DNA from: Clostridia bacterium
Lineage (GTDB): Bacteria; Bacillota; Clostridia; TANB77; RGIG9151
Length of the DNA: 32,000 bases
Direction of reading: 5' to 3'
Assembly: GCA_017934955.1 (NCBI GenBank)
Contig: JAGBIO010000035.1
Location: forward strand, 32,057-64,056
Position 1 is the first letter of the stretch. Each line of letters begins with the position of its first letter. A model generated the notes under the pieces. It searched no databases. It saw only the letters and a list, made by a program, of their open reading frames with translations, and was not told where the DNA came from. The translations under genes were made by a program, and so were the position numbers. This document shows, one piece after another, positions 1,280 to 30,924 of this stretch.

Positions 1280-1285
1280 GTCAAG

Positions 1286-1512
1286 GGGGCTGTAAAAAAA
1301 CTGCCTCAGAAAAATAAAATTTTCAAAACAGGGACTACAAACCGGAGTACAAAACGAAACGGAATGGGCCGCTTACATCTGCCGTCCAGGGCAGGGGTAA
1401 GCTAAACTCAGCCTCGTGTTGAGTTTACCCATTCCTTATCCGTTTGTACTTGCCGATTCTCCGTCATTGTTTTGAAAATTTTATTTTTCTGAGGCAGTTT
1501 TTTTACAGCCCC
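1286..1512. repeat. 227-bp extended hairpin element (repeat family 2) with perfect 45-bp terminal inverted repeats
   Basis: GGGGCTGTAAAAAAACTGCCTCAGAAAAATAAAATTTTCAAAACA at 1286-1330 is the exact reverse complement of 1468-1512. The interior is also largely self-complementary (GGAGTACAAAACG..ACGGAATGGG pairs with CCCATTCC..CGTTTGTACT). A T-run follows at 1513-1519, and the element sits just after the alr stop. Confidence 0.9.
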
Positions 1513-1628
1513 TTTTTTTCTTCATTCATACTCCCACTTATTGTAGGGGACGGCGTCCTCGACGTCCCGTTTTGCAACGTTTCAATTGAAACAAAAGTGT
1601 TTTGCGTAGGCAAAACACCTAAGGCAAT

Positions 1629-1720
1629 GCGGACGTAACACTGTGAACCGTAGGTGAACAGCTTGTACGTCCTATGCAAAGAAACCCCCAAGAACGTAGT
1701 GATTGGCTGGTTTCGACTGC
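1629..1720 (+). repeat. Repeat family 3 module, copy A (two hairpins with GAACGWAGTGA-type loops)
   Basis: GCGGACGTAACA..CTGT[GAACCGTAGGTGA]ACAG..TACGTCC..CCAA[GAACGTAGTGA]TTGG..CGACTGC. It is homologous to 9491-9582 (minus orientation) and 28977-29068. Confidence 0.75.
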
Positions 1721-1779: not shown

Positions 1780-1820
1780 TTGTTGTATAGGCAAAATCTT
1801 TGATTTTTCCTATACAACAA
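1780..1820. repeat. Repeat family 4 hairpin, copy 1
   Basis: TTGTTGTATAGG-caaaatctttgattttt-CCTATACAACAA. The core TTGTATAGGCAAAATCTTTGATTTTTCCTATACAACAAAA recurs identically at 19362-19402. Confidence 0.8.
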
Positions 1821-1846
1821 AAAAGAGACACTAACCTAAGTTAGTG
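1818..1846 (-). terminator. Rho-independent terminator of paralog A
   Basis: On the minus strand the sequence is CACTAAC-TTAG-GTTAGTG followed by TCTCTTTTTT. An identical copy lies at 2783-2811. Confidence 0.8.
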
Positions 1847-1864
1847 CCCCTCGTAGTTTGGTAT

Positions 1865-2650
1865 TCAGTGGGCAGTGCTACCCCTAAGCACGAGAACCCC
1901 CGAGCCTATGTTGCGAGTGCTGTCAGGAAAATTGCGGCAGTAAACATCCGCCACAGGACAGCGGTATCCAAGATTGTAGTAGCTACCACCGCACGCCGCG
2001 AAACCCGCGTTATGGGCAACTATTTTATAGGTGTTACCTACGCCATCGGCAAATCCTCCGACCTTCCGCTTACCGCTCACTTCAAAGTCACCCGAAGCAT
2101 CCGGCGAATTCCGGTAGTTACCGGCACTCGAGCTGTCAGCACAGACGTACTCGAGAGTCCAAAAACCCTTCGCAATCCGGTACGCGTACCAGAGGAAGAG
2201 TTCGTACAGGTTAGCAAGGTCAGAGCCCCACTCAGGAGCGAATTCCTTGCCCTTCGCTTTCCATCCATTGAATGTGAGTCCTCTTGCTACTTCCTCATCG
2301 TTCTTATAGAAAAGCCTTCCGCGGGCATCCATCGATGGCTCGATTGTCGCAATCCGATAGTCGTAGTCGATGACCGTAAGAGCCTCTTCCACAACTTTAA
2401 GAAAGTCCGCCTGTTTCTCCGTCTTAGAAACTACGCCGGGCAGCCATTTCCGGACAAGCTCACGCTCTTTCTTCCCCATCAAGAAAAAATACTTCATCCA
2501 CGACGGTTTTTCCGTCGTCACTTTCTTTTTGGAAAGCAGATTGCCGGATTCGTCAAAGCATACCAGCTTACCGGAAACGGAAATAACCCTGACGCCTTCT
2601 TCGGTAATTTCCACCATACCACCGTTAATCAGTTCGATAACATTTTTCAT
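1865..2650 (-). CDS. Hypothetical protein, paralog A (261 aa) with a possible C-type-lectin/FGE-sulfatase-like C-terminus and a hypervariable patch
   Basis: ATG at 2650 sits 7 nt after GGAGG, and the reading frame looks protein-like. It is a paralog of 2830-3501. The central region (PEWGSDLANLYEL.LWYAYRIAKG.WTLEY, GVGNTYKIVAHNAGFAACGG) is about 90 percent identical between the two. There is no signal peptide. Compared with paralog B it has an extra roughly 38-aa N-terminal insert. Confidence 0.8.
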   Translation of the reverse strand: MKNVIELINGGMVEITEEGVRVISVSGKLVCFDESGNLLSKKKVTTEKPSWMKYFFLMGKKERELVRKWLPGVVSKTEKQADFLKVVEEALTVIDYDYRIATIEPSMDARGRLFYKNDEEVARGLTFNGWKAKGKEFAPEWGSDLANLYELFLWYAYRIAKGFWTLEYVCADSSSAGNYRNSPDASGDFEVSGKRKVGGFADGVGNTYKIVAHNAGFAACGGSYYNLGYRCPVADVYCRNFPDSTRNIGSGVLVLRGSTAH

Positions 2651-2725
2651 TCTACTTCCTCCTTCTTCTTTTACGTCCCCTACTACTATTTTTCATAGGC
2701 TTTCCGTTAAATGCAGCGCTTAGCC

Positions 2726-2754
2726 ATTATATCTCTAAATTATGTAAATGTCAA
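2726..2754 (-). promoter_or_regulatory. Consensus sigma-A type promoter of paralog A
   Basis: On the minus strand: TTGACA (2754-2749), a 17-nt spacer, then TATAAT (2731-2726). A roughly 75-nt leader follows. Confidence 0.75.
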
Positions 2755-2782: not shown

Positions 2783-2811
2783 CAAAAAAGAGACACTAAC
2801 CTAAGTTAGTG
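2783..2811 (-). terminator. Rho-independent terminator of paralog B
   Basis: The same CACTAAC-TTAG-GTTAGTG hairpin plus T-run as at 1818-1846. Confidence 0.8.
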
Positions 2812-2829
2812 CCCCTCGTAGTTTGGTAT

Positions 2830-3501
2830 TCAGTGGTCAGTGCTACGCCTAAGCACGAGAACCCCAGAGCCGTAGAAGCAAGTGAGGTCCGGATAACGTT
2901 CGCGAACATCCGCCACAGGATAGTTGTCCCCATTATTGCTGCAGTTACCGCCGCACGCCGCGAAACCCGCGTTATGGGCAACTATTTTATAGGTGTTACC
3001 TACACCGTCATAAAATCCGCCAACTTTCCGCTTACCGCTCACTTCAAATCCCTGCGAAGCATCCGGCGAATTCCAGTAGTTACCGGCGCTCGAGCTGTCA
3101 TCACAGATGTACTCGAGAGTCCACAAACCCTTCGCAATCCGGTACGCGTACCAGAGGTAGAGTTCGTACAGGTTAGCAAGGTCAGAACCCCACTCAGGAA
3201 CAAATTCCTTGCCTTTGACTTTCCATTCATTACAACAAATTCCTCTTGCCACTTTATCGCCGGCATTGTAGAAAATCCTTCCGCTACCAGAGTACATCGA
3301 CGGCTCGATCACTGCAATCCGGTAATCGTAACCGACAGACTCAAGTGCCTCTTCCACGACCTCCAGAAATTCCTTCTCTCTCTTCGTCTCAGGAAACACG
3401 CCGGACAGCCATTCCCGGACAAGCTCACGCTCTTCCTTACCCATCAAGAAAAAATACTTCATCCACGACGGCTTTTCCAACGTTGCTACAACATTTTTCA
3501 T
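2830..3501 (-). CDS. Hypothetical protein, paralog B (223 aa) of the same family
   Basis: ATG at 3501 has the same GGAGG context. The C-terminus reads ...GVGNTYKIVAHNAGFAACGG-NCSNNGDNY-PVADV-RERYPDLTCFY-GSGVLVLRRSTDH. Confidence 0.8.
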   Translation of the reverse strand: MKNVVATLEKPSWMKYFFLMGKEERELVREWLSGVFPETKREKEFLEVVEEALESVGYDYRIAVIEPSMYSGSGRIFYNAGDKVARGICCNEWKVKGKEFVPEWGSDLANLYELYLWYAYRIAKGLWTLEYICDDSSSAGNYWNSPDASQGFEVSGKRKVGGFYDGVGNTYKIVAHNAGFAACGGNCSNNGDNYPVADVRERYPDLTCFYGSGVLVLRRSTDH

Positions 3502-3576
3502 TCTACTTCCTCCTTCTTCTTTTACGTCCCCTACTACTATTTTTCATAGGCTTTCCGTTAAATGCAGCACTTAGCC

Positions 3577-3605
3577 ATTATATATCAAAATTATGTAAAT
3601 GTCAA
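3577..3605 (-). promoter_or_regulatory. Consensus sigma-A type promoter of paralog B
   Basis: On the minus strand: TTGACA (3605-3600), a 17-nt spacer, then TATAAT (3582-3577). The leader differs from the paralog A leader at one position. Confidence 0.75.
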
Positions 3606-3634: not shown

Positions 3635-3787
3635 GTTACAGTTCAGATTCGAATTTATAGAGACAGCACAAACACTGTAGGGACAGCATTCATGCTGTCC
3701 ACAGAAAAGGCAGAAAGCAGGACAGCATAAATGCTGTCCCTACGATGATTGTGCCATCATTATAGAAGACATCGTCTGAACTGTAGC
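3635..3787. repeat. Two-hairpin REP/MITE-like element (repeat family 1), full-length copy
   Basis: Ends are GTTACAGTTCAGA...TCTGAACTGTAG. Internal palindromes are GGACAGCAT-TC-ATGCTGTCC (3681-3700) and GGACAGCAT-AA-ATGCTGTCC (3720-3739), separated by ACAGAAAAGGCAGAAAGCA. Confidence 0.88.
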
Positions 3788-4563: not shown

Positions 4564-4651
4564 AGTCAAACTATATCACTACCATTGTACGGACAGCATT
4601 TATGCTGTCCTACTTTCTGCCTTTTCTATAAATTTGATTCTGAACTGTAAC
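4564..4651. repeat. Repeat family 1, single-hairpin deletion variant
   Basis: AGTCAAACTATAT...GTACGGACAGCATTTATGCTGTCC(4591-4610)TACTTTCTGCCTTTTCTATAAATTTGATTCTGAACTGTAAC. Relative to the copy at 30772-30924 it lacks the second hairpin, and the deletion lies between CTTTTCT direct repeats. Confidence 0.8.
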
Positions 4652-9393: not shown

Positions 9394-9637
9394 GTTACTG
9401 CTCAGACTATATCCTCCTACAACGATGGTACAACCATTGTACGGACAGCATTTATGCTGTCCTGCTTTCTGCCTTTTCTGTGGACAGCATGGCAGTCAAA
9501 ACTTCCCAATCACTTCGTTCTTGGAGTTTCTTTGCACAGGACGTACAAGCCATTCACTTCGTTCATGGTGTTACGTCCGCGAATGCTGTCCCTACAGGGT
9601 TTGCGCCTTCTCTATAAATTTGATTCTGACCCGTAAC
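9394..9637. repeat. Repeat family 1 element carrying a nested family 3 module
   Basis: GTTACTGCTCAGACTATAT...GGACAGCAT-TT-ATGCTGTCC (9443-9462)...GGACAGCAT(9482-9490)[92-nt insert]ATGCTGTCC(9583-9591)...TCTATAAATTTGATTCTGACCCGTAAC. Confidence 0.88.
9491..9582 (-). repeat. Repeat family 3 module, copy B, inserted in the loop of a family 1 hairpin
   Basis: The reverse complement reads TCGCGGACGTAACACCAT[GAACGAAGTGA]ATGGCTTGTACGTCCTGTGCAAAGAAACTCCAA[GAACGAAGTGA]TTGGGAAGTTTTGACTGCC. Confidence 0.85.
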
Positions 9638-13350: not shown

Positions 13351-15678
13351 CTAATGCGTTATGCCAAGTTCACGATTTAATGCCTCACGTTTTCTTCTCA
13401 ATGTTTTTTCCTCTGTTATAACAGCCTGTTTCATTTTTCCCGTAACAGTCAATTTCAAATCCTGCAATTCTGCCAATCGCTTTTCTAAAACAGCATAAGC
13501 TTCCCTTAACTGCTGAACTTTTTCCTCTATTTGCATGTCTAAATTGTCTGCTTGTTTTGCCATTTCCGCTTGTTTCCCCTTATAACCGAAATCAATAGAA
13601 TGTTGCTGTTTTGCTTGCTGAATCACATCTAAGTCAATTTCTCCCTTCACTACTTTTGATAACGTTCTATTCACATTTGTATAACAACATTGATCCTGCA
13701 AAACATATTGGACGTAATCTTTTGCCAAATCCACATCACCTTGTGAAATCTCCTTTGTCACTGTTTTTCCGGTCTTTAAATCCACATAACCGATCCGAGC
13801 ATCGTCGCCAAATTTATACGGGCTTCTGTAACCTTTTACTCGACTCACTTCTTGGTACATCCCGCGAATAAACTTTGTTAATGATTTTTCATTTTTACAA
13901 ACTCTCTGAATCATCTCAATTTTCATAACAATGAGATCAATTTGTCTCGCAAGGGATCCCTCTTCTATTGTAAATAAGCGCACGTATTGGGGAAATGTTA
14001 ACTGCTGACTTACTATCCCTTCTGCAAATTTTTCAAATAAATGTTGTTTTTCTTGGGTAATACAATCTCTTACTAAAACATCAAAGTTTACGGTTTTTTT
14101 CAAATATTCCTCTAAGGATAATTCTCCGGAAATCAATCTTTTCCGGACATTTCTAACCTTTGCCAAATACTTTTCCGAATTTTTCTGCAATGTATCTTTT
14201 AACTTCTCCTCATCTATTTTATCACCGCAAGTCTCGCGAACAATGTGTAAAATCGTTTCAAACTCCTCCTGCGTCATTCCTTTTCTTTCTGCAAATGCCT
14301 TTTTACTTTCACTTCCCTGCGTAAATTCTCTCACTAAAGCAATTCCAAAATACTCTTCACCGGAATTCTTTATAATTCCTTGACAATCAAAACCCAGTTC
14401 ATTAACTCCTTCTCTATTTAAGCCTTTTCTATCATATCCGTCTTTATTATAACCGGCTTGGTCATAGCCTTCTTCATCATACCCCATTTCGTTATATCCT
14501 TCTCGATTATAACCGGCTTGATTATATCCTTTATCATCATAGAATGTTCCATTTCTATGCTTTCCGCACGCATTAAATCCGTTTCGATCAAATCCGCTTC
14601 GATCATAACCCGCTTCATTATAACCGGTGAAATCATAACCTTCTTCATCATATTTTGTGCCATTTTTATGTAATCTCGTTTTATGAAAGCCCCTTTTGTT
14701 GTAACCTTCTCTATCATAGCCATACCGATTATATCCTTCTCTGTTATATCGATCTCTATCATAACCGGCTTTATTGTACCCCTCTTTATCATAACCATAC
14801 CTATCATATCCGGCTGCATTATAACCACTTTTATCATATCCGAATGCATTATATTTCGTTCCATTTTTATGCAGCCCATCTTTGTTAAAGCCTGCCGCAT
14901 CGTACCCACTTCTATCATAACCGGCTTTATTATAGCCCTCTTTATTATAACCGGCTTTATCATAGCCGAACTTATCATAACCTGCTCTGTTATAGCCTTC
15001 TTGGTCATATCCTAAAATATCATAACCTTCTTCATCGTATTTTGTTCCGTTTTTATGCAACCCATCTCTGTTAAATCCTTTTTTATTAAAACCTTTTTTA
15101 TTATAGCCTTCTTGATCATATCCAAAATAATCGAAACCATGAGAATCGTATCTTGTTCCGTTTTTATGAAGATTGCCTCGACTAAATCCGTTTCGATCAA
15201 ACCCTCTTTTATCATATCCGTATTTATCGTATCCGTCTCGATCATATCCGAACTTATTATATCCGTTTTTTTTGTAACCATCCCTATCAAAACCTTCTCT
15301 GTTAAAACCTGCCCGATTATATCCATCTCTATCGTATCCACTTAAATTATATCTTGTTCCATTTTTATAAATTCCTTCACTGTTAAAACCTTCTCGGTCA
15401 TACCCCTCTCGATCGTAACCTTTCCGATTATAACCCTTTTTATCATACCCTTCTCGGTCGTAACCCTCTCGATCATACCCTCTTTTGTTATACCCCTCTC
15501 GGTCATATCCTTCTCGATCATAGCCCTCTCGGTCATATCCTTCTCGATCATAACCATGCCGATCGTAGCCAAAACTATCATAACCTTCTTCATCATACCA
15601 TGTACCATTTTGATGTTTTCCTCTACGCCCGGTCGGTGTAATTCTAAATCCTCTTTCGTCATACTGTATCTCTTTCAT
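13351..15678 (-). CDS. 775-aa protein with a roughly 400-aa N-terminal array of G-[YF]-[DN]-x-x pentapeptide repeats, a unique C-terminal domain and a coiled-coil tail
   Basis: ATG at 15678 sits 7 nt after GGAGG. The sequence GYDREGYDREGYDREGYDREGYNKRGYDREGYD... is punctuated seven times by [HK][KQR]NGT.Y. The non-repetitive C-terminal half ends in a heptad-rich segment. Confidence 0.85.
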   Translation of the reverse strand: MKEIQYDERGFRITPTGRRGKHQNGTWYDEEGYDSFGYDRHGYDREGYDREGYDREGYDREGYNKRGYDREGYDREGYDKKGYNRKGYDREGYDREGFNSEGIYKNGTRYNLSGYDRDGYNRAGFNREGFDRDGYKKNGYNKFGYDRDGYDKYGYDKRGFDRNGFSRGNLHKNGTRYDSHGFDYFGYDQEGYNKKGFNKKGFNRDGLHKNGTKYDEEGYDILGYDQEGYNRAGYDKFGYDKAGYNKEGYNKAGYDRSGYDAAGFNKDGLHKNGTKYNAFGYDKSGYNAAGYDRYGYDKEGYNKAGYDRDRYNREGYNRYGYDREGYNKRGFHKTRLHKNGTKYDEEGYDFTGYNEAGYDRSGFDRNGFNACGKHRNGTFYDDKGYNQAGYNREGYNEMGYDEEGYDQAGYNKDGYDRKGLNREGVNELGFDCQGIIKNSGEEYFGIALVREFTQGSESKKAFAERKGMTQEEFETILHIVRETCGDKIDEEKLKDTLQKNSEKYLAKVRNVRKRLISGELSLEEYLKKTVNFDVLVRDCITQEKQHLFEKFAEGIVSQQLTFPQYVRLFTIEEGSLARQIDLIVMKIEMIQRVCKNEKSLTKFIRGMYQEVSRVKGYRSPYKFGDDARIGYVDLKTGKTVTKEISQGDVDLAKDYVQYVLQDQCCYTNVNRTLSKVVKGEIDLDVIQQAKQQHSIDFGYKGKQAEMAKQADNLDMQIEEKVQQLREAYAVLEKRLAELQDLKLTVTGKMKQAVITEEKTLRRKREALNRELGITH

Positions 15679-16838: not shown

Positions 16839-16893
16839 AGCCGTAAAAAACTGTTTTGAAAATTTTATTTTTCCAAGGCAGTTTTTTACAGTC
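16839..16893. repeat. Repeat family 2, collapsed copy
   Basis: CCGTAAAAAACTG-TTTTGAAAATTTTATTTTTCCAAGG-CAGTTTTTTACAG. It matches the right arm, plus a stub of the left arm, of the 1286-1512 element. Confidence 0.75.
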
Positions 16894-16907
16894 TCTTCCT
16901 TTTGTAC

Positions 16908-16927
16908 GGACAGCATTTATGCTGTCC
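16908..16927. repeat. Solo family 1 palindrome between convergent genes (possible bidirectional terminator)
   Basis: GGACAGCAT-TT-ATGCTGTCC lies 4 nt beyond the stop of the RluA-family gene. Confidence 0.8.
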
Positions 16928-16931
16928 TAAA

Positions 16932-19361: not shown

Positions 19362-19400
19362 ATTGTATAGGCAAAATCTTTGATTTTTCCTATACAACAA
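19362..19400. repeat. Repeat family 4 hairpin, copy 2
   Basis: The sequence ATTGTATAGGCAAAATCTTTGATTTTTCCTATACAACAA matches the core at 1782-1820 exactly. Confidence 0.8.
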
Positions 19401-19404
19401 AACA

Positions 19405-19431
19405 GCGAGTAAAGTTTCTATCTTTACTCGC
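19405..19431. terminator. Terminator hairpin downstream of hpf
   Basis: GCGAGTAAAG-tttctat-CTTTACTCGC has T/A runs on both sides. Confidence 0.7.
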
Positions 19432-20061: not shown

Positions 20062-20215
20062 GTTACTAATCAGACTTAAAATTATAAAAATGTTACGAAC
20101 ACTGTAGGGACAGCATTTATGCTGTCCACAGAAAAGGCGTAAAGCAGGACAGCATGAATGCTGTCCCTACAATGGTTGTAGCATCATTATAAAAAGCTAT
20201 AGTCTGACCTGTAAC
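20062..20215. repeat. Repeat family 1, full-length two-hairpin copy
   Basis: GTTACTAATCAGAC...GGACAGCAT-TT-ATGCTGTCC (20108-20127)...GGACAGCAT-GA-ATGCTGTCC (20147-20166)...AGTCTGACCTGTAAC. Confidence 0.88.
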
Positions 20216-22056: not shown

Positions 22057-22083
22057 AAAAAGTCCTTTCATTTTTTTATGCAA

Positions 22084-22103
22084 GGACAGCATGAATGCTG
22101 TCC
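22084..22103. repeat. Solo family 1 palindrome
   Basis: GGACAGCAT-GA-ATGCTGTCC is followed by CTACAACAAAAGTTGT. Confidence 0.8.
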
Positions 22104-22130
22104 CTACAACAAAAGTTGTCTCAATTCAAA

Positions 22131-24515: not shown

Positions 24516-24547
24516 ATAAACTCTCCTTAATCCATTGTAGCCATTGT

Positions 24548-24611
24548 GGACAGCATAAATGCTGTCACTACGAGAAAATGTTGATTTGTACGGACAGCAT
24601 TCATGCTGTCC
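24548..24611. repeat. Two family 1 palindromes without the usual element ends
   Basis: GGACAGCAT-AA-ATGCTGTCA (24548-24567) and GGACAGCAT-TC-ATGCTGTCC (24592-24611). Confidence 0.8.
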
Positions 24612-24616
24612 ATTTC

Positions 24617-28797: not shown

Positions 28798-29155
28798 TTT
28801 CGAAAAATATCGGTAGAATGCGGTTTGTTCTTAAACTCTGTACGGACAGCATTTATGCTGCCCTGCTCTTCTGCCTATTCTGTAGACAGCATTGTGGACG
28901 TAGCACCGTAAGCGTACTTATTACAATTCAGACTATATCTCCTACAATAATGGTACAACTATTGTAGGGACACAATTCGCGGACATAACACCATGAACGA
29001 AGTGAATGGTTTGTATGTCCTGTGCAAAGAAACTACAAGAACGAAGTGCTTGGGAAGTTTCGACTGCTATTGTGTCCGCGAAATAGGCAGACAGTAGAAT
29101 TAGGACACAATGAATTGTGTCCCTACAAACCGCCTTCCGCCGATATTTTTCGAAA
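28798..29155. repeat. Compound repeat region bounded by a roughly 30-bp inverted repeat
   Basis: TTTCGAAAAATATCGGTAGAATGCGGTTTG (28798-28827) pairs with CAAACCGCCTTCCGCCGATATTTTTCGAAA (29126-29155). Inside are a family 1 palindrome (28844-28863), a truncated one, a second family 1 element with variant stems GGACACAAT/ATTGTGTCC, and a nested family 3 module. Confidence 0.8.
28977..29068 (+). repeat. Repeat family 3 module, copy C, nested in the loop of a variant family 1 hairpin
   Basis: GGACACAAT|TCGCGGACATAACACCAT[GAACGAAGTGA]ATGGTTTGTATGTCC...ACAA[GAACGAAGTGC]TTGGGAAGTTTCGACTGCT|ATTGTGTCC. Confidence 0.85.
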
Positions 29156-30771: not shown

Positions 30772-30924
30772 GTTACAAGTCAGACTATATCGTCCTACAA
30801 TGATGCGCAGCCATTGTGCGGACAGCATTTATGCTGTCCTGCTTTCTGCCTTTTCTGTGGACAGCATAAATGCTGTCCCTACAGTGTTTGTGTCTTTTCT
30901 ATAAATTTGATTCTGAACTGTAAC
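30772..30924. repeat. Repeat family 1, best-preserved full-length copy (opposite orientation to 3635-3787)
   Basis: GTTACAAGTCAGACTATAT...GGACAGCAT-TT-ATGCTGTCC (30820-30839) TGCTTTCTGCCTTTTCTGT GGACAGCAT-AA-ATGCTGTCC (30859-30878)...TCTATAAATTTGATTCTGAACTGTAAC. Confidence 0.9.

What the first reader, a model, noticed from the sequence alone, without database searches (positions are those of the whole stretch)
28977..29068. A roughly 92-nt structured module with two hairpins presenting the same 11-nt loop, two of its three copies nested in the loop of the other repeat
There are three copies: 1629-1720 (+), 9491-9582 (-) and 28977-29068 (+).

- The consensus is TCGCGGACGTAACA-CCAT[GAACGAAGTGA]ATGG-cTTGTACGTCC-TGTGCAAAGAAACT-CCAA[GAACGAAGTGA]TTGG-GAAGTTTTGACTGCC.
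- Two short hairpins display the same loop, GAACG(A/T)AGTGA, while their stems vary with compensation (CCAT/ATGG becomes CTGT/ACAG in copy A).
- The enclosing stem also covaries (GGACGTA/TACGTCC becomes GGACATA/TATGTCC in copy C).
- In copies B and C the module sits at the same point, in the same relative orientation, inside the loop of the first family 1 hairpin (CAT|TCGCGG...GACTGC(C/T)|AT). Those host hairpins have different stems. Copy A lies in a different, hairpin-rich context.

Conserved loops on covarying stems are typical of a protein- or RNA-recognition element. I do not recognise this as any named ncRNA or repeat family.
Basis: seen in the sequence. Interest (0 to 1): 0.7.

Follow-up and report, generated by a model that had tools for sequence, protein, structure and literature searches.

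The report
Two-hairpin mini-repeat nested in REP loops
A roughly 90-base DNA repeat made of two look-alike hairpins sits at the tip of another small palindromic repeat in an uncultured gut Clostridia genome; it is most likely a small piece of selfish, hairpin-forming DNA, not a new RNA gene.

Summary
Three copies, about 90% alike per alignment column, lie at the stated coordinates. They fold into two hairpins, and 4 of 28 base pairs change on both sides with pairing kept.

The "11-nt loop" is not an open loop. It is a structured cap: tandem G·A mismatches, two base pairs, then a C(GNA)G triloop.

"Family 1" is a REP/REPIN-type repeat: GTAG followed by a 9-bp palindrome, in inverted doublets. 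Copies B and C sit at the centre of the 2-nt loop of the first REP, in two different REPIN subfamilies. Both subfamilies also have empty members, so the module is a discrete insert. Copy A lies in unique DNA. A fourth copy has decayed.

I found the module only in this lineage: not in Rfam, species-representative genomes, JGI metagenomes, plasmids, phages or relatives. Orientation relative to genes is mixed, and no shared promoter or terminator turned up.

The same cap on unrelated stems recurs in diverse metagenomes. A near-identical tip occurs on published transposase-associated REPs of Marinomonas and Pseudomonas stutzeri.

Best reading: a non-autonomous repeat that folds as single-stranded DNA, probably moved in trans by a tyrosine HUH transposase. 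Mobilisation is inferred, not shown. It is a new variant of a known kind, of modest interest.

The parts
28977..29068 (+). Module copy C. The core GCGGAC...GACTGC spans 28979-29067.
   Evidence: 115 bits. Identical in two independent assemblies, L021 and L046.
28981..29020 (+). Copy C, hairpin 1: outer stem GGACATA/TATGTCC, inner stem CCAT/ATGG, cap GAACGAAGTGA at 28995-29005.
29024..29067 (+). Copy C, hairpin 2: GCA/TGC, GAAACT/AGTTTC, CAAG/CTTG, cap GAACGAAGTGC at 29039-29049.
9491..9582 (-). Module copy B. The core spans 9580-9492 on the minus strand.
   Evidence: 118 bits
1629..1720 (+). Module copy A, in unique DNA outside any family 1 repeat. Its first cap has an extra C-G pair and both triloops read GTA.
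   Evidence: (98 bits). Also present in the independent assembly L048.
28964..28976 (+). Left arm of the host REP of copy C: GTAG plus GGACACAAT.
29069..29077 (+). Right arm of the host REP of copy C: ATTGTGTCC.
29103..29126 (+). Second, empty REP of copy C's REPIN doublet: GGACACAAT-GA-ATTGTGTCC-CTAC.
9583..9595 (-). Left arm of the host REP of copy B: GTAG plus GGACAGCAT.
9482..9490 (-). Right arm of the host REP of copy B: ATGCTGTCC.
9439..9462 (-). Second, empty REP of copy B's REPIN doublet.
3677..3743 (+). Empty REPIN of the same subfamily and spacer type as copy B's host. It serves as a paralogous empty site.
28890..28916 (+). Possible truncated module fragment following a REP arm: CATTGTGGACGTAGCACCGTAAGCGTA. 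Marginal.
   Evidence: local score 29, against a shuffle 95th percentile of 22 and a maximum of 36.

Best explanation
The module is a small non-coding DNA repeat of about 90 nt that cannot move on its own. It belongs to the REP / IS200-IS605-miniature (PATE) kind.

On the strand given, each half folds as single-stranded DNA into an imperfect hairpin. From the base upward it has an outer stem, an inner 4-bp stem, a tandem G·A/A·G mismatch, two base pairs and a C(GNA)G mini-hairpin tip.

**Shown.**
- The fold is kept by compensatory changes.
- The unit is a discrete insert at the centre of the 2-nt loop of a GTAG-type REP hairpin, in two different REPIN subfamilies, and it also occurs in unrelated DNA.
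- Copies decay.
- Both the module and its host REPs are confined to a narrow lineage.

**Inferred.**
- It is, or was, copied through a single-stranded DNA intermediate by a tyrosine HUH (Y1) enzyme encoded elsewhere in the genome. That enzyme could be a REP-associated transposase (RAYT) or an IS200/IS605 TnpA.
- The enzyme binds the two near-identical hairpins, with the mid-stem G·A mismatch as its recognition feature. The GNA tip serves only to nucleate folding.
- The exposed loop of an extruded REP hairpin offers a single-stranded target.
For: **Structure.** Three copies show 98.8% pairing and 4 double-sided compensations. In addition:
- A compensatory one-pair insertion occurs in a cap (ACC-GTA-GGT against AC-GAA-GT).
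- A G·A to G-C change occurs in copy C.
- The middle triloop base varies between A and T.

**Discrete insert.**
- Filled and empty paralogous REPINs match in stems and spacer, for both the GGACAGCAT and the GGACACAAT subfamilies.
- An empty REPIN lies upstream of the orthologous binding-protein gene in a relative.
- Copy A has unique flanks.

**No sign of RNA or protein coding.**
- Orientation relative to genes is mixed, and no shared promoter or terminator is present.
- A 2-nt indel breaks any common reading frame.
- There is no Rfam match.

**Dispensable and lineage-limited.**
- Copy D is decayed.
- The REPs are absent from relatives at 88-89% GyrB identity, and the module is absent from every relative's locus fetched.
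- No true match exists in 185,579 species-representative genomes or in JGI metagenomes.

**Link to Y1 transposases.**
- REPs flanking RAYT genes carry a near-identical tip in place of my cap. Marinomonas has GTAGGGCATCATGAACGAAGTGTAATGTGCC and a covarying variant with ATGAGCGGAGCGTAAT. P. stutzeri has GATTAGCGAAGCGTAATC and a 3-bp variant GCCGAAGGC (PMC6006769, supplementary file 2).
- E. coli TnpA-REP needs the mid-stem purine mismatch for binding and does not touch the tip (PMC3479197).
- d(GCGNAGC) is extraordinarily stable as DNA and much less so as RNA (PMC13037366).
Against: - No transposase gene lies in the roughly 62 kb of this genome that I could read, so the mobilising enzyme is hypothetical.
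- The module hairpins lack the GT[AG]G foot that defines canonical REPs.
- No full-length parent insertion sequence with these ends was found.
- With 3 intact copies and 1-2 decayed ones, insertion preference rests largely on one kind of target.
- B and C sharing orientation and REP position has a chance probability of about 1 in 4.
- Three of four copies have the cap strand on the + strand. By GC skew that is not the lagging-strand template, the strand IS200/IS605 elements favour.
- Nearest-neighbour energies do not favour the cap strong over its complement.
Confidence: 0.5

Rival explanations
1. The module is a structured RNA: a small RNA gene, or an element acting in cis within transcripts. 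Its two capped hairpins would be bound by a protein or another RNA.
For: - Stems covary and the apical motif is conserved.
- One G·U pair is tolerated only on the given strand.
- Copies A and B lie in sense, downstream of a gene.
- The cap recurs on variable stems in many intergenic regions of other bacteria.
Against: - Copies C and D are antisense to the surrounding co-directional genes.
- No shared promoter or terminator is present.
- There is no Rfam match even at E up to 10.
- A GNA triloop on a C-G pair is a stability motif of DNA, not of RNA.
- Copy D lost the cap.
- The module is absent from close relatives that keep the same flanking genes.
Confidence: 0.2
2. The module is a long-loop subfamily of the family 1 REPIN with no mobility of its own. 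It arose once in a REP loop and has spread only by hitch-hiking when the REPIN is copied.
For: - Three of four copies (B, C, D) are inside REP arms, at the same loop position and in the same orientation.
- REP families with long, self-complementary loops are known (PMC3733652).
Against: - Copy A has no family 1 sequence on either side.
- The hosts of B and C belong to two REPIN subfamilies that differ in all four arms and in the spacer. Each subfamily has empty members. A single origin would therefore need wholesale conversion of the host.
Confidence: 0.15
3. The module is a DNA structural signal that the host uses. Examples would be a single-strand priming or replication-restart site, or a cruciform or topoisomerase site like those proposed for BIMEs. 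It would be kept for that role and not as selfish DNA.
For: - Mini-hairpins of the C(GNA)G type mark primase and single-strand initiation sites, and they resist SSB binding (PMC13037366).
- The cap is widespread across phyla.
Against: - The module is absent from relatives that have the same gene order.
- One copy is decayed.
- Copy number is low, and positions are not conserved.
Confidence: 0.1

Closest known systems
REP / REPIN / BIME elements with their REP-associated tyrosine transposases (RAYT, TnpA-REP)
   Same: - Short, intergenic, lineage-specific imperfect hairpins with a mid-stem purine mismatch.
- A near-identical tip (GA-AC-GAA-GT followed by G(T)A in place of GA) occurs on RAYT-flanking REPs of Marinomonas, and a related one on those of P. 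stutzeri.
- The module lives among, and inside, canonical GTAG REPs.
   Different: - The module hairpins have no GT[AG]G foot.
- The two hairpins are direct repeats, not an inverted doublet.
- The unit is 90 nt.
- Copy number is low.
- No cognate RAYT gene has been seen.
Miniature derivatives of IS200/IS605 (palindrome-associated transposable elements, PATEs)
   Same: - No clear terminal inverted repeats.
- No target duplication longer than 1 nt.
- A near-identical hairpin close to each end, as for the left and right ends bound by a TnpA dimer.
- Insertion into a single-stranded target.
   Different: - No parent element with tnpA or tnpB was found.
- A conserved 4-5-nt target could not be established.
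- Strand bias relative to replication is not as expected (one of four copies).
Insertion sequences that target REPs (IS1397 and ISKpn1 in the loop; IS110-family elements such as IS621 and ISPpu9/10). Named from my own knowledge. PMC3733652 says only that REPs serve as insertion targets for IS elements.
   Same: Site-specific insertion into a REP palindrome. Here it is at the dyad centre of the loop.
   Different: - Those elements are 1-1.5 kb and encode their own enzymes.
- IS1397 makes a 3-4-bp duplication.
- The module is 90 nt, non-coding, and shows no duplication.
Two-hairpin RNA motifs with identical terminal loops, such as TwoAYGGAY in Rfam (recalled from memory)
   Same: The concept is the same: two adjacent hairpins presenting the same loop sequence on variable stems.
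   Different: - No Rfam model matches.
- The loop sequence and its internal pairing differ.
- Orientation relative to genes is inconsistent.

Membership tests
Canonical REP (RAYT-associated) | A GT[AG]G tetranucleotide 0-2 nt 5' of the hairpin foot | tested here: not met
   Hairpin 1 is preceded by TTCGC and hairpin 2 by CTGTGCAAA. Only the host family 1 hairpin carries GTAG.
Canonical REP (RAYT-associated) | An imperfect hairpin of 20-40 nt with a mid-stem mismatch | tested here: met
   Each arm is about 40 nt, with a tandem G·A mismatch and an internal loop.
Canonical REP (RAYT-associated) | A cognate RAYT gene flanked by the repeats (a REPtron) | not testable with these tools
   No Y1 transposase lies in the roughly 62 kb available.
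Canonical REP (RAYT-associated) | Many dispersed intergenic copies, restricted to a lineage | tested here: inconclusive
   All copies are intergenic, and the module is confined to this lineage. Only 3 intact copies and 1-2 decayed ones were found in about 62 kb.
IS200/IS605-derived miniature element (PATE) | Similar subterminal hairpins at both ends, no terminal inverted repeats, no target duplication | tested here: met
   - The apical 19 nt of the two hairpins differ only by one flipped pair.
- The ends GCGGAC and GACTGC are not inverted repeats.
- Comparing filled with empty sites leaves at most 1 nt of possible duplication.
IS200/IS605-derived miniature element (PATE) | A conserved 4-5-nt target immediately 5' of the left end | tested here: inconclusive
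   The left flanks read GCAAT, GCATT, CAATT and TCATT. Three of the four are the same REP loop.
IS200/IS605-derived miniature element (PATE) | A full-length parent element with tnpA or tnpB that shares the ends | tested here: not met
   None was found in the window or the fetched loci, plasmids or phages, species-representative genomes, or metagenome and viral scans. These searches were narrow.
Classical MITE | Terminal inverted repeats of 15-30 bp, plus a target site duplication | tested here: not met
   No terminal inverted repeats and no duplication are present.
Curated RNA family (Rfam 15) | A covariance-model match at or near the gathering score | tested here: not met
   In the window only a tRNA reaches threshold. 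The best hit near the module is CRISPR-DR27 at 15.7 bits, E = 9.7.
Independent small RNA gene | Own promoter and terminator in a constant position, and a discrete transcript | tested here: not met
   No promoter or terminator is shared between the copies. Expression cannot be tested here.

The most novel reading that the evidence does not exclude
The module is a previously undescribed class of miniature element: a parasite of a parasite. It would integrate specifically, as single-stranded DNA, into the apical loop of REP hairpins and borrow the REPs' own tyrosine transposase. Its GA / 2 bp / GNA / 2 bp / GA cap would be a cross-phylum recognition or folding signal, shared by a large and so far unnamed superfamily of intergenic hairpin repeats.
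Probability: 0.15. Interest if true: 0.6.

Novelty: new variant of a known kind. Interest (0 to 1): 0.35.

Why it matters
**If the reading is right.**
- GTAG-type REP/REPIN systems, described mostly in Proteobacteria, also flourish in uncultured gut Clostridia.
- REP hairpin loops can themselves be colonised by a second, smaller hairpin element.
- That gives a natural test case for how tyrosine HUH transposases choose single-stranded targets.

**The cap.** The tandem G·A plus C(GNA)G cap recurs on unrelated stems in many metagenomes and on published RAYT-associated REPs. It may be a general design rule for DNA hairpins that must fold quickly when single-stranded.

**Practical consequence.** These repeats break short-read assemblies exactly at their edges. 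Several contigs end at the module or its REP.

Tried and rejected
**Searches that found nothing useful.**
- Species-representative genomes, with a linker-based pattern: 20 hits, all chance matches in unrelated taxa and mostly in coding sequence.
- JGI metagenomes, with a second linker-based pattern: 0 hits. Viral contigs: 0 hits.
- Protein search with the module's three open reverse-strand frames joined end to end, hoping to catch spurious gene calls over other copies: nothing.
- blastn of the module plus its REP arms against plasmids and phages: no match.
- Rfam at gathering and at E up to 10, for the module and for the capped hairpin arrays from metagenomes: nothing relevant.
- Literature searches for the cap sequences and for peptides they would encode: only primer coincidences, or nothing.
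- Pfam scan of genes next to ten capped hairpin loci in metagenomes: unrelated housekeeping genes and no transposase.

**Readings considered and rejected.**
- A small protein gene: the indel in copy A shifts the frame, and the substitutions are compensatory in the stems.
- A kink-turn: there is no 3-nt bulge next to the G·A pairs.
- An integron attC site: the R'/R'' consensus is absent, and the module is not a single long hairpin.
- A CRISPR repeat or type III antitoxin array: the module is not tandemly arrayed here.

**Unverified recollection.** I recalled that the cap matches the "CnGA-foot" structures of class 3 Y1 proteins described in PMC6006769. I could not confirm this in that paper's supplement.

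Full report
**1. The observation**

Over the core, mean column identity is 90%. A covariance model built from them scores the copies at 98-118 bits and finds nothing else in the window.

Every copy folds into two adjacent hairpins. On my 28-pair structure, 98.8% of the 84 sequence-by-pair cells form standard pairs. Four pairs change on both sides. Column shuffles give a mean of 1.4 (8 of 500 reach the observed value). Sliding the partners by one or two columns gives none; a slide of +3 gives one pair.

I add three:
- A T-A to C-G swap in outer stem 2.
- An inserted C-G pair inside the first cap of copy A (ACC-GTA-GGT against AC-GAA-GT).
- An A-to-C change in copy C that turns a G·A mismatch into a G-C pair.

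Predicted folding energy is only modestly better than shuffles (z from -1.3 to -4.2) and is similar on both strands. The case for structure therefore rests on covariation.

**2. The "loop" is a structured cap**

Read as GA / AC / GAA / GT / GA, the 11 bases form three stacked parts:
- a tandem G·A-A·G mismatch;
- two Watson-Crick pairs;
- a GNA triloop closed by C-G.

The variation fits this reading. The middle triloop base changes between A and T, while the G and A do not. The paired bases change only in step with each other. The two hairpins share an almost identical apical 19 nt (CCATGAACGAAGTGAATGG and CCAAGAACGAAGTGATTGG), which suggests an internal duplication.

d(GCGNAGC) mini-hairpins are extraordinarily stable as DNA and markedly less so as RNA (PMC13037366).

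**3. The host and the neighbourhood**

The window is chromosomal DNA of an uncultured Clostridia bacterium.
- Its GyrB is 100% identical to an NCBI "MAG: Clostridia bacterium" protein. It is 73-74% identical to Petroclostridium and 71% to Acetivibrio thermocellum.
- The matching ENA contigs carry names of the XIEF21-1 series. I take these to be a ruminant-gut metagenome study, but that is from memory and unverified.
- The genes are housekeeping genes, mostly on the minus strand, and GC skew is strongly negative on the plus strand.
- No transposase lies in the roughly 62 kb of this genome that I could read.

**4. What "family 1" is**

It meets the published operational definition of a REP (PMC6006769):
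- GTAG (sometimes GTAC or GTGC) lies directly 5' of a perfect 9-bp stem.
- The loop is 2 nt, T followed by a pyrimidine.
- The hairpins are arranged as inverted doublets around an asymmetric spacer, i.e. REPINs.

Two subfamilies coexist, each with its own spacer:
- GGACAGCAT, with spacer ACAGAAAAGGCAGAAAGCA.
- GGACACAAT, with spacer GCGRAATAGGCAGAYRGTAGAATTA.

These REPs are dense in this genome. They also occur in a relative at 95% GyrB identity (L052) and in one whose binding protein is 85% identical (L062). They are absent from about 95 kb of syntenic DNA in relatives at 88-89% GyrB identity. That is the patchy, fast-moving distribution expected of REPINs.

**5. The module is a discrete insert**

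Aligning filled and empty REPINs gives this picture:

| State | Sequence at the first REP |
|---|---|
| Empty | ...GTAGGGACAGCAT-TC-ATGCTGTCC... |
| Filled, copy B | ...GTAGGGACAGCAT-T[CGCGGAC...GACTGC]C-ATGCTGTCC... |
| Filled, copy C | ...GTAGGGACACAAT-T[CGCGGAC...GACTGC]T-ATTGTGTCC... |

- The module lies at the dyad centre of the 2-nt loop of the first REP, in the same orientation in both subfamilies.
- Each subfamily also has empty members: window 3677-3743 and 20104-20170, and L048 7131-7203.
- At most one base could be duplicated at the insertion site.
- The ends are not inverted repeats.

Further points bear on independence:
- Upstream of the orthologous binding-protein gene, L062 has one intact, empty REPIN in a 312-nt spacer. 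The window has 565 nt there, holding a REPIN, a possible truncated module fragment (28890-28916; marginal) and the filled REPIN C.
- Copy A has no family 1 sequence on either side, and its flanks are unique in the available DNA.
- A fourth copy lies about 2.4 kb left of the window (L048 7402-7477, also present in an independent assembly, L049). It keeps the stems of hairpin 1, but its cap has decayed to AAACAAAATGA, hairpin 2 is truncated, and its REP arm has mutated. Individual copies are therefore not under strong selection.

**6. Distribution**

- A linker-based pattern found only chance matches in 185,579 species-representative genomes. A second linker-based pattern found nothing in JGI metagenomes, and the first found nothing in viral contigs.
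- Plasmids, phages and Rfam gave nothing.
- The model found no copy in any relative's locus.
- The module is present and identical in independent assemblies from different samples (L021, L046 and L048). It is not an assembly artefact.

**7. The cap is far more widespread than the module**

A pattern asking only for two caps 20-45 nt apart returned 20 metagenome loci and one viral locus. I estimated that about 3-4 would be expected by chance.

In most of these loci each cap is flanked by complementary stems of unrelated sequence. Examples are GTTACTGT/ACAGTAAC, CCCCCT/AGGGGG and ATCCCGA/TTCGGGAT.

A scan of those loci found 27 capped hairpins, against 0.35 in shuffles. It also turned up covarying cap variants that the search did not ask for: GAGCGTAGCGA and GAATGCAATGA. 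The hairpins are intergenic, are often in tandem or inverted arrays, lie next to unrelated genes, and match no Rfam family.

**8. Link to known biology**

The supplementary table of PMC6006769 lists REPs that flank RAYT genes. Two sets have tips close to my cap:
- Marinomonas (ABR69730.1): GTAGGGCATCATGAACGAAGTGTAATGTGCC, and the covarying variant with ATGAGCGGAGCGTAAT.
- P. stutzeri: GTAGGATGGATTAGCGAAGCGTAATCCGTC, and a 3-bp variant GCCGAAGGC. This 2-bp against 3-bp variation is the same as I see between copies B and A.

In the E. coli TnpA-REP/REP crystal structure, the mid-stem purine mismatch is essential for binding. The five pairs nearest the tip and the loop are not contacted (PMC3479197). 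REP families with long, self-complementary loops, and REPs used as insertion targets, are both on record (PMC3733652).

**9. Mechanism**

Shown:
- A structure-constrained two-hairpin unit.
- A precise insert at REP loop centres and elsewhere.
- Decay of copies and restriction to a narrow lineage.
- No coding frame, no fixed relation to transcription, and no known RNA family.

Inferred:
- The unit works at the level of single-stranded DNA.
- Its two near-identical hairpins are the binding sites for a Y1 HUH enzyme supplied in trans (a RAYT or an IS200/IS605 TnpA).
- The G·A mismatch is the recognition feature and the GNA tip is a folding nucleus.
- The loop of an extruded REP hairpin is the single-stranded target.

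Against this reading:
- No such enzyme was seen.
- The hairpins lack a GTAG foot.
- No parent element was found.
- Strand orientation relative to replication is not as IS200/IS605 would predict.
- The sample is small.

I put this reading at about 0.5. The rivals are a structured RNA (0.2), a hitch-hiking long-loop REPIN subfamily (0.15) and a host-used DNA signal (0.1).

**10. Verdict**

This is a new variant of a known kind: small hairpin repeats of the REP / miniature IS200-IS605 type. It is notable for nesting in REP loops and for a cap shared across phyla. Interest is modest at 0.35.

Noticed in passing
window 3677-3743, 4587-4613, 9439-9462, 16904-16931, 20104-20170, 22081-22107, 24546-24615, 28839-28867, 29103-29126, 30816-30882; L048 7131-7288 and 8685-8781; L052 769-841; L062 338-413: "Family 1" is a GTAG-tagged REP/REPIN system in an uncultured Clostridia genome.
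- It has two coexisting subfamilies with stems GGACAGCAT and GGACACAAT, each with its own spacer.
- It is present in close relatives and absent from relatives at 88-89% GyrB identity.
- In the papers I read, such systems are described mainly in Proteobacteria, Cyanobacteria and Bacteroidetes.
   Followed up: partly
L026 1466-1580; L033 7860-7960; L034 12300-13080; L039 3270-3480; L040 190-470; L041 873-923; L030 5556-5628; L036 4522-4612; L038 5092-5177: Hairpins capped by GA / 2 bp / GNA / 2 bp / GA on unrelated stems occur in many metagenome contigs, with GC content from 28% to 60%.
- They are often arranged in tandem arrays of 42-57-nt units, for example GTCATTCTGAACGNAGTGAAGAATC.
- They are intergenic and absent from Rfam.
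- They may be an unnamed superfamily of REP-like repeats.
   Followed up: partly
window 28890-28916: After a REP arm (AGACAGCAT) comes a 27-nt stretch resembling the module's 5' end (GTGGACGTAGCACCGTAAGCGTA). It may be a truncated fifth copy, in the opposite orientation relative to its host REP. The score is marginal.
   Followed up: partly
window 13351-15678 (-): A 775-aa ORF with no Pfam match is built largely of 15-nt (5-aa) periodic repeats, in blocks spaced about 111 nt apart (repeat families D1 and D2).
   Followed up: no
window 1818-2754 and 2783-3605: A tandem duplication of about 965 nt at 80-97% identity. Each copy carries an ORF of about 220-260 aa on the minus strand with no Pfam match. 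It lies right next to module copy A.
   Followed up: no
window 1283-1335 / 1463-1515; also 16851-16887: A 53-nt inverted repeat, 94% complementary, with arms 127 nt apart, lies downstream of the alanine racemase gene. A 37-nt copy of one arm occurs at 16851-16887. This is another dispersed repeat family.
   Followed up: no
window 1783-1828 and 19363-19408: A 46-nt hairpin with A/T runs on both sides (TTGTATAGGCAAAATCTTTGATTTTTCCTATACAA) is repeated at 96% identity. It looks like a bidirectional terminator that is itself a dispersed repeat.
   Followed up: no
window 1541-1568, 1598-1615 and 1729-1741: Around copy A lie other small hairpins carrying GTAG or a C-GTA-G tip: GTAG+GGGACG...CGTCCC, GTTTTGC-GTAG-GCAAAAC and GTTGC-GTA-GCAAC. 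This hints at further families of mini-hairpin repeats.
   Followed up: no
L022 start, L045 end, L047 end, L049 and L050 ends: Short-read contigs from other samples stop exactly at the edges of the module or its REPs. For example, L022 starts at about window position 28975 and L045 ends at about 29104. These repeats fragment assemblies and are likely under-represented in MAGs.
   Followed up: partly
L063 3-2902: In a more distant relative (binding protein 78% identical), the region a few kb upstream of the orthologous gene carries cas1, cas2 and csn2, which suggests a type II-A CRISPR-Cas locus. The window has no such locus.
   Followed up: no
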